Source of the DNA: a virus
Taxonomy: Duplodnaviria; Caudoviricetes
Length of the DNA stretch: 38,098 nt
IMG/VR virus record: IMGVR_UViG_3300046779_001840
Span: 1 to 38,098 of that record
Direction: 5' to 3' (one strand)
The notes beneath the pieces were generated by a model, which worked only from the letters and a program-made list of their open reading frames with translations, was not told where the DNA came from and did not search any database. The translations under genes and the position numbers were made by a program. Positions 72 to 38,098 of the stretch are shown in pieces. Numbering within the stretch: the stretch's first letter is position 1; each line of letters starts with the position of its first letter.

Positions 72-620
72 TTATTTAGCTAATAATTGTTCGATCTCTT
101 CTGGAATCCATGGAGTCTCCATGCGCTCTGGGTGCCACACAATCCCTGCTATTTTTCCATCAATCCAGGCTTCGCAATTGCCGTCGTTGTCGTTGGCCAG
201 CACAATTGCTTTTTCATGTGGTCGCTGTATACCCAGGGAATGATGACTGTTAACGTATTTTAAATCGCCAAAGTAGTTAACAGTGTGCTCGATGTCACTG
301 TGCCCAACAATGTCAACAACTACTCCGCCCAGTATATCTGTGAGTAAAAAGCAGCCATGGCAAACACCAATCACGGGTTTGTTTTGCTGCATCATTGCAG
401 TTGCTAATCGTATTTCTGTTAGACGTCTAATGGCACTGTCGTCACCACCTGTAATAACAAAGCAATCCAGCGACTCTGCTAGTTCTTGAAAATTTTGTTC
501 GGGCCTGTTTGCAATAGGAAAGAGCGTATGCGACTTAAAGTAGGTATACCAACCTTGCTCTAGTGCGTCATACGCTCTATTTTTGTGTAACAGGACTCGT
601 TGACTGAGTCCTATTCGCAT
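72..620 (-). CDS. Class I glutamine amidotransferase / peptidase C26-like protein
   Basis: ITGGDD, nucleophile elbow GVCHG, VNSHH, WHPE triad; ATG at 620 overlaps the upstream TAA (TAATG). Confidence 0.88.
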   Translation of the reverse strand: MRIGLSQRVLLHKNRAYDALEQGWYTYFKSHTLFPIANRPEQNFQELAESLDCFVITGGDDSAIRRLTEIRLATAMMQQNKPVIGVCHGCFLLTDILGGVVVDIVGHSDIEHTVNYFGDLKYVNSHHSLGIQRPHEKAIVLANDNDGNCEAWIDGKIAGIVWHPERMETPWIPEEIEQLLAK

Positions 621-29963: not shown

Positions 29964-29985
29964 AAAAAACGGGCCGAAGCCCGTT
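29964..29985 (-). terminator. Rho-independent terminator
   Basis: AACGGGC-TTCG-GCCCGTT followed by a T-run. Confidence 0.88.
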
Positions 29986-29987
29986 AG

Positions 29988-30146
29988 TTATTTGTTCTTT
30001 TGTTGATGTCGATATTCTCTACGCAACCACCAACGATATCGTTGCCAGTATTCCTGTAGTGTATAAGGCAGCTCTTGATATTCTTCATGCTCCCGACAAT
30101 TTTCTAACCAGATATTTCTTAACCAATGTCTAAATTTTGAATCCAT
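29988..30146 (-). CDS. Small Trp/Arg-rich hypothetical protein
   Basis: GGAG RBS before ATG 30146 (MDSKFRHW). Confidence 0.62.
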   Translation of the reverse strand: MDSKFRHWLRNIWLENCREHEEYQELPYTLQEYWQRYRWWLRREYRHQQKNK

Positions 30147-30149
30147 ATC

Positions 30150-30359
30150 TGACTCCCAAATTAGTGTTCGGCTACTGATCCTCATCAGCCCCGAACTGAG
30201 CGGTTACTCTGTCCACTACATTTACTTCTAGCAAGGTGTAGTACCCACTTACGATGTTTCCAGGCTCCCATGTAAGCGGGACTTGAGGTCATTGATCGTA
30301 TGCACCCTGACATTTTGGTGAAGTCATTTACCCCCTTTAATAACGCAGAAGGGACTGCG
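30150..30359 (-). ncRNA. Unassigned multi-stem structured RNA downstream of tRNA-Met
   Basis: Closing stem TGACTTC..CCAAA/TTTGGGAGTCA; inner helices CCCGCTTAC/GTAAGTGGG, ACTACA/TGTAGT, GTTCGG/CCGAAC, CTGAT/ATCAG, GTCA/TGAC; 5' hairpin CGCAG/CTGCG. Confidence 0.62.
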
Positions 30360-30364
30360 AGGTT

Positions 30365-30438
30365 TGGTTGCGGGACCTGGAATCGAACCAAGATCTGGAG
30401 CTTATGAGACTCCTGAATTACCGTTACTCTATCCCGCG
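30365..30438 (-). tRNA. tRNA-Met(CAT), initiator-like
   Basis: Cloverleaf, loop CTCATAA, C1xA72 mismatch, A11-U24, encoded CCA. Confidence 0.92.
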
Positions 30439-30447
30439 GCTGTTAGT

Positions 30448-30555
30448 TGGGAGTTGTCCTCCCGGAAGAAGTCCGTAGCCCTATACGTCTATAGGGTTCA
30501 CTAGTAAATCCTAGCTATTCCTGGTGCGGTCACTTGCGTGATCCCGTGACGGACA
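30448..30555 (-). ncRNA. Unassigned multi-branch structured RNA between tRNA-Trp and tRNA-Met
   Basis: Closing GTCCGT/ACGGAC enclosing TCAC-GCAA-GTGA, CTAG/CTAG and CCCTATA-GACG-TATAGGG, then GGGAG/CTCCC. Confidence 0.52.
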
Positions 30556-30560
30556 ATTTT

Positions 30561-31684: not shown

Positions 31685-31713
31685 ATTATATACAATACTT
31701 CATTTATTGTCAA
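31685..31713 (-). promoter_or_regulatory. Consensus sigma70 promoter driving the tRNA array
   Basis: TTGACA-17 nt-TATAAT. Confidence 0.88.
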
Positions 31714-31891
31714 CTGCTTTTTGCAATCTTTCTATTTCTTCAGCTGCCTCTTCGAGTAGATCTGCAATCCTATCCCTTGCACCTTCTTCTACACTCTTAC
31801 GCCCGGGAATTTGTCGCCTAATCTCTGCCCGCTTACGTAGGCGAAAGATCAGGCTTTGTTCCGAGACAGGCAAATGACTTTCGTCTTTCAT
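31700..31891 (-). CDS. Small hypothetical phage protein
   Basis: GGAGG RBS, MKDESH..; RLRKRAEIRRQI..DRIADLLEEAA; ATGA-coupled to the ligase gene. Confidence 0.72.
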   Translation of the reverse strand: MKDESHLPVSEQSLIFRLRKRAEIRRQIPGRKSVEEGARDRIADLLEEAAEEIERLQKAVDNK

Positions 31892-32778
31892 GCTGCCTCC
31901 ATATAGTTGCGTACCCATGCCAGGCGAGCTTGCTCGTCCATGGCAGTATATTCTGCAATATTAGCACGAATAGCGTCAACCAAGGGATAGTATTCTTCGT
32001 CCAGATTCTGCTTGATATCATTTTGCATGTTAACAAGTTTGTCTGTACGAGGATTACGTGCAACCCACTTTGAAGTCAAGTAGTACGGACTCTTGATCTT
32101 TGCGCTCACATCATCTTTGGTGTAAAATACAAAACCTTCGTGACGAACATTCTTAACATGTTGCAGCAAGTTGCCTACGGTTGTGTTGAATATTTCTACC
32201 CGACGACAACCAAGCTGGTCTCCCAATGGATGCAAAGTATGAGCTTGGTAATACAACTTACCGTCCCATGCCTTGTGACGGAAGCCTAGCAAATACATGC
32301 CTTCTTCTTCTGGAATAATGTGAGGATCGTTACGATGCACGCATTCAAACATAAAAGTGAAGTCTGGCATTTGTTGCAGTACATCAGCATACTTTGTTTC
32401 ATCAATTAGTTCACGTGCCATAGCAACAAAGTCACTGTCAGTGCTACCAGTGGTAGAAATTAACAATGCATCGTTGTGCCAGGTCACTGCAACCATAAAA
32501 CCATTGATTTTACGATGTGCTGTAACTTCAGTTGCAGGGTCAAGTACTGGTGCGTTCTTTTCTACACCATAGTTGTAAATCTTAGTAAAAGGACGCTGTA
32601 CTACATTAAAATCTTCATCAACAATAGTACCACGGCATTCTTCCAAGTAGTCATTCCACAGATCGTCGAAGAAAACTTTTTTCTTGTACTTGAGTACAAA
32701 GATACCATCACCAGCAGGCTTCCGGCTAACTAGGTTAGGGTTTTCTTCAACAAAATTTTTTAATGCTAATTTATCCAT
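31888..32778 (-). CDS. T4 Rnl1-like RNA ligase
   Basis: PFTKIYNYG, motif I KINGFM, FMFE, motif IV EGFV, motif V KIKS. Confidence 0.88.
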   Translation of the reverse strand: MDKLALKNFVEENPNLVSRKPAGDGIFVLKYKKKVFFDDLWNDYLEECRGTIVDEDFNVVQRPFTKIYNYGVEKNAPVLDPATEVTAHRKINGFMVAVTWHNDALLISTTGSTDSDFVAMARELIDETKYADVLQQMPDFTFMFECVHRNDPHIIPEEEGMYLLGFRHKAWDGKLYYQAHTLHPLGDQLGCRRVEIFNTTVGNLLQHVKNVRHEGFVFYTKDDVSAKIKSPYYLTSKWVARNPRTDKLVNMQNDIKQNLDEEYYPLVDAIRANIAEYTAMDEQARLAWVRNYMEAA

Positions 32779-32795
32779 GATACAACTCCAATACT

Positions 32796-33260
32796 TTACA
32801 CTACTATAATTTTGGTGTAACCTTCGTCTTCTGTTGGCATCACAAACCCATCAATCATGCTACGCATCACATGATCGGGAATGTTCTTTCCCGGCCGACC
32901 AGCCAAACGGCGTGCCAACTCATCTTTGTCAGGAGTAGGAAACACAACCGCGATATGCTCATAGTCGGGCAACATGTTAAACTTTCTAGCACGAGCACCT
33001 ATACTAGTAGATGTTTGGTCCCAGATAATGTTCCTGTTGTTTGCTTTGGCAGTTGAGACTTGATTGGTCATTAATTTAACTGCAACAGGCATGTAGTCTG
33101 CGAACACTTCGTTATAAGTTTTACCTTGTTCTTGTGCATACTTTTCCACAAAATTATCAGTAGACACTACAACAAAATTGTCCAACATGTTCTGAGTCTT
33201 GATCCAGGTACTTTTACCAGCACCAGGTACACCTACCAAATGAATACACTTCAACTTCAC
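32796..33260 (-). CDS. P-loop polynucleotide-kinase-like protein (AAA_33 type)
   Basis: GVPGAGKST, STD, WDQT, lid RR..R; probable GTG start at 33260. Confidence 0.85.
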   Translation of the reverse strand: MKLKCIHLVGVPGAGKSTWIKTQNMLDNFVVVSTDNFVEKYAQEQGKTYNEVFADYMPVAVKLMTNQVSTAKANNRNIIWDQTSTSIGARARKFNMLPDYEHIAVVFPTPDKDELARRLAGRPGKNIPDHVMRSMIDGFVMPTEDEGYTKIIVV

Positions 33261-33261
33261 G

Positions 33262-33819
33262 TTACACCTCGTATTTGTCATGGTGCGATTTAATTGCACC
33301 TGTTAATGCGCTGGCAATCGCTTGGTCCAAAGACATAACAATCTGACCTGTTGCATCCATGCCCATGTCTCGAACACGATAGTGTTCTAAGCCACTACGG
33401 TTGCCGTGCAAGTGACCATGCAAATGAACTGCTCCGCGATGCATTTGATCAAACTCTGCAATAGGATAGTGAAACATTACAACCTTATGTCCGTTATAGT
33501 TAACAGACAAGTAGGTGTGGATCTCCACAAAGCAATCACGGAATGGTTGGTGCTTTAACAATTTACGATCGTGGTTACCTTCAACCAAGATCTTGCGACC
33601 GTTCAAACTACGCATGATTCCAGTGGCTTTGTCTGCACCACAGAATGCAACGTCACCTAAAATATACACAGTATCTTCGGGCATGACAATCTCATTCCAT
33701 TCCCGAATCATCATGCTGGTCATTGACTCTACGTCAGGAAATCGTGCCCTGGACTCAGGACAAAACTTTAAAATGTTTGTGTGACCAAAATGCAAGTCAC
33801 TGGTTACGTATGTTTTCAT
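33262..33819 (-). CDS. Calcineurin-like metallophosphoesterase
   Basis: SDLHFGH, LGD, GNHD, FHYP, HGHLH. Confidence 0.92.
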   Translation of the reverse strand: MKTYVTSDLHFGHTNILKFCPESRARFPDVESMTSMMIREWNEIVMPEDTVYILGDVAFCGADKATGIMRSLNGRKILVEGNHDRKLLKHQPFRDCFVEIHTYLSVNYNGHKVVMFHYPIAEFDQMHRGAVHLHGHLHGNRSGLEHYRVRDMGMDATGQIVMSLDQAIASALTGAIKSHHDKYEV

Positions 33820-37524: not shown

Positions 37525-38098
37525 TGGTGGACTGAGATTACATCCTACCCATAAGCACCTCTAGCATTATACTGCACCTTGCGAGCACAGCTTCTCTAGA
37601 CATCCACTAAGACCATATTGCTATGTATCCTAGTCTGCTTACAGTATCGCCGTTTTTAAAGACAGGCAGTAGTCTTGTCGTTACATGCTACTCTACACCA
37701 TCTATCCCGTTAACCTTGCGAGCTATTCAGAGTCGCTAAACCCTTACGAAACTTCCAGTATAAACTGATATTACCTTGCGAGCTTTATCAGACTCAGTTA
37801 GCCGAAGCCCTGAGCGTTAGATACTTTTCACACATAACCGAGTCAGTCTTTGCATTTTATAAATGACAGGATTTGAACCTGTAGCATTCTGATTAAAAGT
37901 CAGACGATCTACCATTGATCTACATTAACCTACTGCGATGTGCTGACTCAGTTGCTCTATACTCTTTTGGAATACAGAATACAACACACCACGTACCTTT
38001 CCTCTCGCGGAGTAATCAGTCGTTTTTTGCGATCGGTGTCCGTACTGCTACGTCCACTAACCACTCAAACTGCATACGAGCCCTTAGGAGCGACCCTT
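37525..38098 (-). ncRNA. GOLLD-like giant ncRNA (3' portion; continues beyond the window)
   Basis: >570 nt with no ORF in the track; many helices; three GCTCGCAAGG GNRA hairpins; 3' TAATCTCA; tRNA-array context; embedded tRNA. Family call is from memory of GOLLD features. Confidence 0.75.
37858..37929 (-). tRNA. tRNA-Lys(TTT)-like element embedded in the large ncRNA (no CCA, weak acceptor stem)
   Basis: D arm GATC/GATC, TCTGA-CTTTTAA-TCAGA, T arm ACAGG-TTCAAAT-CCTGT; acceptor GTTAATG/CATTTAT. Confidence 0.78.

What the first reader, a model, noticed from the sequence alone, without database searches (positions are those of the whole stretch)
30150..30359. Unassigned ornate RNA of about 200 nt behind tRNA-Met, whose closing stem covers the next gene's RBS
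Seen: a multi-junction fold with a closing stem (30326 side with 30150 side), a GTCC/GGAC three-way junction carrying two long arms, and three more hairpins. It is preceded by a compact H-type pseudoknot candidate (stem CGCAG/CTGCG, loop TCCCTT pairing with AAGGGG) starting a few nt after the tRNA CCA. The 3' strand GGGAG is the SD of the ORF at 30146. It does not look like tRNA, tmRNA, RNase P, 6S or SRP to me. Inference: a novel phage ncRNA, ribozyme or riboswitch processed from the tRNA transcript.
Basis: partly seen in the sequence, partly recalled or inferred. Interest (0 to 1): 0.72.

Follow-up and report, generated by a model that had tools for sequence, protein, structure and literature searches.

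The report
Five-pseudoknot RNA in phage tRNA operon
Behind a tRNA gene of a lake jumbo phage lies the gene for a conserved 200-base RNA of a family missing from Rfam, predicted to fold into a closed chain of five pseudoknots; it is likely cut free from the tRNA transcript and likely works by its shape, not as a switch for the next gene.

Summary
It spans 30362 to about 30164 (minus strand), 2 nt behind the tRNA-Met CCA. No Rfam hit. Pattern scans gave 194 distinct full-length homologues from uncultured phage and metagenome contigs. Covariation supports nine stems plus five pseudoknots, one joining the 5' end to the last loop. The stem over the next gene's RBS exists only in this copy (own versus cross z = 0), and 0 of 21 relatives of that gene carry the RNA. 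It is not manA, GOLLD, theta or T4 rnaC/rnaD. A rewired class lies outside tRNA arrays, followed by a type I hammerhead. RNA-library contigs of relatives cover it, a weak hint of expression. Best reading: a processed, free structural RNA that likely self-associates like manA, GOLLD and ROOL; function untested. The scan described this family before on other DNA (e1-5851851, e1-6174448).

The parts
30164..30362 (-). The ncRNA gene (about 199 nt)
   Evidence: Model R1 match 30160-30365, 185.8 bits, single copy in the record (the window was in the seed); conservation ends at A30165
30365..30438 (-). tRNA-Met(CAT) with encoded CCA, 2 nt upstream of the RNA
30359..30362 (-). PK0 5' strand (CCTC), pairs with the last loop 30183-30180 (GAGG)
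   Evidence: own vs cross z 9.8, 0 of 5000; compensatory types recur on separate branches
30333..30359 (-).
   Evidence: PK1 91% paired, 5 of 5 pairs with double changes; z 18.3; P1 z 11.0
30308..30332 (-). PK2 (30332-30330/30319-30317) and P2 (30326-30323/30311-30308)
   Evidence: PK2 z 7.8; P2 z 16.0
30247..30306 (-). P3 (30306-30304/30289-30287) crossing P4 (30303-30295/30255-30247), with bulged hairpin P5 (30286-30259) inside
   Evidence: P3 99.5% paired, z 10.7; P4 z 17.5, P5b z 15.2
30213..30246 (-). P6 (30246-30234), whose loop 30242-30238 kisses 30219-30215 (PK3), and short P7 (30231-30230/30214-30213)
   Evidence: PK3 z 15.2, 37 helix types; P6 z 5.2; P7 has no double-sided change because its 3' strand is nearly invariant
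30166..30214 (-). Conserved 3' face: GGAC, P8 hairpin with AAC loop, CAG linker, P9 with G-rich internal loop
   Evidence: In 93 sequences collected by the P9 pattern, 86 keep GGAC in register and all 86 keep AAC; P8 shows A-T to G-C in 12; P9 97-99.7% paired
29988..30157 (-). SD and 52-aa ORF (30146-29988) downstream; co-transcribed neighbour, not part of the RNA
31685..31713 (-). 12/12 sigma-70 consensus promoter ahead of the tRNA array
   Evidence: consensus match only
29968..29985 (-). Intrinsic-terminator-like hairpin ending the inferred operon
   Evidence: consensus match only

Best explanation
This is the gene of a conserved 200-base phage RNA, predicted to fold into a closed chain of five pseudoknots, that is likely released from the tRNA operon transcript as a free stable RNA and likely works by its shape, most likely by docking onto copies of itself to build an RNA-only particle as manA, GOLLD and ROOL do. 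Shown: conservation, the pairings by covariation, position in tRNA slots, independence from the neighbouring genes. Inferred: transcription from the array promoter; release by host tRNA-processing nucleases (or, in the rewired class, by a hammerhead); protection of the 5' end by its pairing with the last loop; use of the invariant GGAC / AAC-loop / CAG / G-rich internal-loop face and one or more kissing helices as docking surfaces. Untested: oligomerisation and any benefit to the phage.
For: Sequence-only alignment of 61 homologues: 81.0% of cells paired vs 67.0% shuffled, 50 of 60 pairs with double changes, slid controls 36-49%. Five pseudoknots beat cross pairing in 89 homologues, 0 of 5000 each. 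Helix sequences are free while the 3' face is nearly invariant. 154 of 194 have a same-strand tRNA nearby; 78 follow a tRNA of 13 different isotypes; all 241 tRNA calls are on the same strand. Six tRNA-free sequences keep the core and are followed by a hammerhead, complete in 5 of 6, so a made 3' end seems to matter. RNA-library contigs of a relative end at 30171 and 30166 in two studies, while a DNA contig of that variant runs on (weak hint). manA sits in the same slot in S-CREM1 and forms 8-, 10- and 60-mers by kissing loops (bioRxiv 2026.07.01.735769). A ROOL kissing loop first read as intramolecular proved intermolecular (PMC12286853).
Against: Covariation cannot tell intra- from intermolecular pairing. 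In the rewired class the last loop pairs with an internal strand next to P3, which fits an intramolecular strut at least as well. No sequence or fold relation to manA or GOLLD, so self-assembly rests on analogy. Expression rests on assembled contigs of relatives in libraries that may hold DNA; no raw reads, strand or level. 64 of 194 follow a reading-frame stop rather than a tRNA and 45 follow neither, so tRNA processing cannot make every 5' end. The permutation controls ignore relatedness; the tree addresses this only for PK0 and P3.
Confidence: 0.4

Rival explanations
1. A free monomeric knot that binds a host factor by shape: a decoy for an RNA-directed defence protein or nuclease, or a ribosome or protein ligand.
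For: Invariant face on a sequence-free scaffold; paralogues in one genome (L111, G003); RNA ligase, kinase-like and phosphoesterase genes just upstream of the array. Pseudoknot RNAs that neutralise toxins are recalled, not from a call.
Against: No partner gene is fixed beside it; no likeness to a known target RNA; RNA-repair genes are common beside phage tRNA arrays (recalled).
Confidence: 0.25
2. A ribozyme of an undescribed class (self-cleaving, ligating, or excising itself from the operon transcript).
For: Many pseudoknots and near-invariant unpaired bases, the marks proposed for biochemically demanding RNAs (PMC5737381). One RNA-library contig joins the tRNA-Met end to 30160, skipping 202 nt at the element's borders.
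Against: That joint is one contig of depth 2.3 from a relative (13 differences in 153 nt), letters between unknown; it was in 1 of 4 RNA runs. Gap to the tRNA end varies and the tRNA here encodes CCA, unlike theta ribozymes. The rewired class carries a separate hammerhead. Hammerhead core in 1 of 89.
Confidence: 0.13
3. A cis-acting stabiliser or punctuation element: the knotted 5' end blocks decay of the downstream tRNAs and RNAs, like an xrRNA.
For: 5' end is paired in a conserved pseudoknot; always co-oriented with tRNAs.
Against: The most conserved part is at the 3' end; the rewired class lacks the 5'-end pairing; tRNAs are stable once processed (established knowledge).
Confidence: 0.1
4. 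A riboswitch or translational control element for the downstream ORF, through the stem over the SD.
For: A 7-bp helix over the SD exists in this copy, and the MFE fold holding it is far more stable than the nested part of the conserved fold (-68.0 vs -37.5 kcal/mol, pseudoknots not counted).
Against: No conservation of that stem (z 0); SD+ATG follows in 13 of 194; 0 of 21 loci of the ORF family hold the anchor motif.
Confidence: 0.05
5. A selfish or neutral mobile cassette kept only by array shuffling.
For: Many different neighbours, tandem paralogues, truncated copies (L117, L122) and a possible empty allele.
Against: Compensatory changes in five pseudoknots across divergent copies; no mobility gene or terminal repeats seen beside it.
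Confidence: 0.05

Closest known systems
manA RNA (Rfam RF01745)
   Same: About 200 nt, multi-stem, phage-borne; in S-CREM1 it starts 1 nt after a tRNA and ends at the next; kissing loops drive oligomers.
   Different: manA has a closing stem around a multibranch core; this RNA has a chain of pseudoknots and no closing stem. No cross-hit either way.
GOLLD (RF02032) and ROOL
   Same: Ornate RNAs near phage tRNA islands, function unknown, RNA-only cages; conserved 3' domain with exchangeable 5' part, also seen here (L505).
   Different: Two to four times longer, unrelated fold. A true GOLLD lies elsewhere in this window; none was found in 5 other carriers, a search without a positive control.
Phage T4 rnaC and rnaD (species 1 and 2)
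   Same: Small stable RNAs in tRNA slots of a tRNA cluster, function unknown.
   Different: 139 and 119 nt; rnaD ends in CCA, whereas 4 of 89 homologues have CCA at the 3' end; R1 gives no significant hit (best 5.6 bits, opposite strand).
Theta (minimal HDV-like) ribozymes
   Same: Pseudoknotted RNA directly 3' of phage tRNAs.
   Different: Theta: nested double pseudoknot, cleavage site at the tRNA end, 4.5% of partner tRNAs encode CCA, mostly gut phages. This RNA is 200 nt, has another topology and often follows no tRNA.

Membership tests
manA (RF01745) | Score above gathering threshold of the Rfam model | tested here: not met
   No hit at E<=10 in the window region, E<=1 in 20 homologue loci, E<=0.5 in 14 more; control S-CREM1 scores 96.6 bits
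manA (RF01745) | Closing stem enclosing the multibranch core | tested here: not met
   R1 does not hit manA
manA / GOLLD / ROOL as a kind | Location in phage tRNA arrays, co-oriented | tested here: met
   154 of 194
manA / GOLLD / ROOL as a kind | Homo-oligomer through intermolecular kissing loops | not testable with these tools
   Needs native gel, mass photometry or cryo-EM
GOLLD, ROOL, EGFOA, raiA and other Rfam 15 families | Rfam model hit | tested here: not met
Theta / HDV-like ribozyme | Nested double pseudoknot P1-P2-P3-(P4) with catalytic C | tested here: not met
   Covariation gives another topology; no Rfam hit. A recalled descriptor hit 0 of 89 but had no positive control
Theta / HDV-like ribozyme | 5' end at the tRNA 3' end, partner tRNA mostly without CCA | tested here: inconclusive
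   78 of 194 follow a tRNA at variable distance; the window's tRNA encodes CCA
Self-cleaving ribozyme (any class) | Site-specific cleavage in vitro | not testable with these tools
   Bench test needed
Riboswitch / cis-regulator | Consistent place 5' of a related gene set | tested here: not met
   13 of 194 with SD+ATG; 0 of 21
Riboswitch / cis-regulator | Conserved expression platform | tested here: not met
   SD-covering stem own = cross
T4 rnaC / rnaD | Sequence or structure homology | tested here: not met
tRNA, tmRNA, RNase P, 6S, SRP, Y RNA | ARAGORN or Rfam hit over the element | tested here: not met
Type I hammerhead (downstream of the rewired class only) | Stems I-III, CUGAnGA and GAAA core, GUA triplet | tested here: met
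   5 of 6 distinct sequences complete; core as in PMC10085705; Rfam hammerhead model 32.3 bits, below gathering, in L297 only

The most novel reading that the evidence does not exclude
The five-pseudoknot RNA is a new class of ribozyme that cuts itself out of the phage tRNA operon transcript and rejoins the flanks, as the single RNA-library contig that skips exactly this element would suggest.
Probability: 0.06. Interest if true: 0.93.

Novelty: new variant of a known kind. Interest (0 to 1): 0.66.

Why it matters
It is a widespread, uncatalogued RNA family with five covariation-supported pseudoknots in 200 bases and a natural rewiring of one long-range contact. It is small enough for in vitro transcription and cryo-EM, so it makes testable the old question of what the non-tRNA RNAs of phage tRNA clusters (T4 rnaC/rnaD, manA, GOLLD) do, and whether RNA-only cages are their common theme. 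The hammerhead-linked class gives a natural construct with a self-made 3' end.

Tried and rejected
A pairing between the P8 and P9 loops was considered and dropped (z 1.4, 458 of 5000). An unconstrained descriptor for the 5' domain picked many wrong helices and was not used for counts. The 'CCA' row was a placeholder and is void; one search gives the real count. Recalled twister and pistol motif patterns (4 and 12 of 89, not the window) are too loose to mean anything. blastn of four family members against cultured phages found nothing real; R1 found nothing in 5 cultured phages chosen by protein likeness; the upstream 191-aa protein of L002 has no cultured match and no family above cut-off. 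Prokaryote genomes: exact 19-mer 0 hits; degenerate form 10 hits, all lacking the rest of the RNA, at most 17.6 bits. Empty-site search gave 3 unrelated hits; the 202-nt skip was in 0 of 4 DNA runs, which shows no absence. Flanking ORFs were little covered in RNA runs, and summed depths differ, but contigs cannot rank genes, so neither is used. Habitat is taken only from the well-covering runs. Dropped before the count of 194: 19 of 217 distinct cores (17 chance motif hits, 2 truncated copies) and 4 of the hammerhead class.

Full report
Setting. The window is a whole 38,098-base virus record, about 10% complete. Its clamp loader is closest to Pseudomonas jumbo phages (52.6%), the best-covering runs are freshwater metagenomes, and two near-complete carriers of the same RNA are 343 and 356 kb. 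It holds 13 tRNA genes and a GOLLD RNA, all on the minus strand. The finding lies in an inferred operon from a 12/12 sigma-70 consensus (31713-31685) to a terminator-like hairpin (29985-29968).

Observation. The element begins 2 nt after the tRNA-Met CCA. Rfam 15 gives no hit at gathering or at E<=10, nor over the element in 20 and 14 homologue loci.

Homologues. An exact 19-mer hit 92 IMG/VR stretches. Of 343 loci with the anchor, 328 had enough flank and gave 217 distinct cores; 19 were dropped as chance or truncated and 4 set apart as a separate class, leaving 194. A model from 61 of them matched 98 of 100 sources at 48 bits or more, missing only the manA control and scoring a chance locus at 17.6, and 49 of 51 further representatives found with a variant pattern. 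No cultured phage or prokaryote genome searched held it.

Fold. I derived the pairings by eye from the first alignments (note) and then tested them. On the sequence-only alignment, 81.0% of cells pair against 67.0% in shuffles, 50 of 60 pairs change on both sides, and slid controls reach 36-49%; misalignment lowers P6 and PK3 there (43-52%). On 89 model-aligned sequences, each strand was scored against its own and against other sequences' partner regions: PK0 z 9.8, PK1 18.3, PK2 7.8, P3 10.7, PK3 15.2, each 0 of 5000; P1 11.0, P2 16.0, P4 17.5, P5b 15.2, P6 5.2. These controls ignore kinship. On a tree built without the PK0 columns, the CCTC/GAGG type appears on at least four separate branches (L176, L310, L111, the window's clade), and ACT/AGT and CCC/GGG types appear apart from it (bootstrap values rough). 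The order is PK0 5' strand, P1/PK1, PK2/P2, P3/P4 with P5 inside, P6/PK3/P7, P8, P9 whose loop closes on the 5' end; coordinates are. P7 lacks double changes. Because the first patterns fixed the GGAC-P8 segment, I resampled by the P9 pattern: 86 of 93 keep GGAC in register, all 86 keep the AAC loop, and P8 covaries.

The small pseudoknot stands. The stem over the SD is real in this copy but shows no signal in the family (own 10.35, cross 10.36), and conservation ends at 30165. The GTCC strand belongs to P5 and is kept in 24 of 89. The downstream ORF is real, yet none of its 21 relatives has the anchor motif nearby (one has no upstream DNA).

Context. Upstream: tRNA 78 (13 isotypes), reading-frame stop 64, other 45, no start called 7; downstream: tRNA 36, SD+ATG 13, other 144, short 1, of 194. 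The RNA behaves as an independent unit of the array. Six distinct sequences outside tRNA arrays keep most of the core, pair the last loop with an internal strand instead, and are followed by a type I hammerhead, complete in 5 of 6.

Expression. Contigs of relatives cover the element in RNA runs X15, X16 and X18, and only its edge in X17. Two studies' contigs stop at 30171 and 30166, at the predicted 3' end, while a DNA contig sharing their variants continues. This is a weak hint; DNA in the libraries is not excluded. One X15 contig skips 202 nt at the element's borders; it was not seen in 4 DNA runs or as an exact junction in IMG/VR. An element-less relative is the simpler reading.

Mechanism. 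Free helix sequences with an invariant 3' face, many neighbours and a separately supplied 3' end in the rewired class point to a free RNA that works by shape. Self-assembly is my first choice by analogy with manA and ROOL (0.40), a monomeric decoy second (0.25), then ribozyme (0.13), 5' stabiliser (0.10), riboswitch (0.05) and neutral cassette (0.05). None was tested at the bench.

What is known. Paper searches showed no description of this family; the library lacks most subscription journals. Seen: bioRxiv 2026.07.01.735769, parts 1-3 of 5; passages only of PMC2864571, PMC9964418, PMC5737381, PMC10690425, PMC10085705, PMC10879173, PMC12286853, PMC9697503 and bioRxiv 2026.09.22.753630. For PMC10690425, which mined IMG/VR, four supplementary files were searched without a hit, but two zip files gave no text and three files were too large; its candidates are at most 151 nt, so a fragment of this RNA could be among them. 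bioRxiv supplements were not read. Earlier notes of this scan describe a five-pseudoknot, ~206-base family in tRNA slots, seen after my own model was noted; they are not independent support. The T4 rnaC/rnaD comparison came from such notes and was tested.

Verdict. A real, well-supported, uncatalogued RNA family with an unusually knotted fold, a new structural variant among the ornate RNAs of phage tRNA arrays; function untested. Interest 0.66.

Noticed in passing
window 37529-37992 (-): GOLLD RNA (197.1 bits) with tRNA-Lys embedded at 37858-37929.
   Followed up: partly
window 30439-30560 (-): The 120-nt spacer between tRNA-Trp and tRNA-Met folds into a four-way junction closed by a 6-bp stem, plus a hairpin; no Rfam hit. 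Possibly a second small RNA.
   Followed up: no
L613:2322-2620 (+), L614, L615, L293, L294, L297, L351: Rewired class outside tRNA arrays: own promoter-like site, plain hairpin in place of P1/PK1, last loop pairing with a strand next to P3, then a type I hammerhead. No tRNA within 2.5 kb in L613-L615.
   Followed up: partly
L505:472-644 (-): A tRNA inside a long stem replaces the 5' domain while the 3' domain is kept, recalling tRNAs embedded in GOLLD.
   Followed up: no
L111:7-211 and 389-591 (-); L343; G003:C1:29885-30091 and 32541-32745: Two divergent paralogues in one array, each with its own 5'-end/last-loop match in L111.
   Followed up: partly
window 31888-33819 (-): RNA ligase, kinase-like and phosphoesterase genes in a row just upstream of the tRNA operon.
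   Followed up: no
L002:772-1347 (+): 191-aa protein of no family above cut-off whose stop codon lies just before the RNA; similar gene ends precede many homologues.
   Followed up: partly
3' flanks of homologues, e.g. L004, L075, L082: Recurrent cassettes that begin right after the RNA and look closed by long AT-rich stems; compare e1-6210778.
   Followed up: no
window 30160/30363, run X15 record 1: One RNA-library contig of a relative skips the element exactly: empty allele or excision.
   Followed up: partly
L117, L122: Truncated copies in which an ORF end or a tRNA is fused into the middle of the RNA.
   Followed up: no
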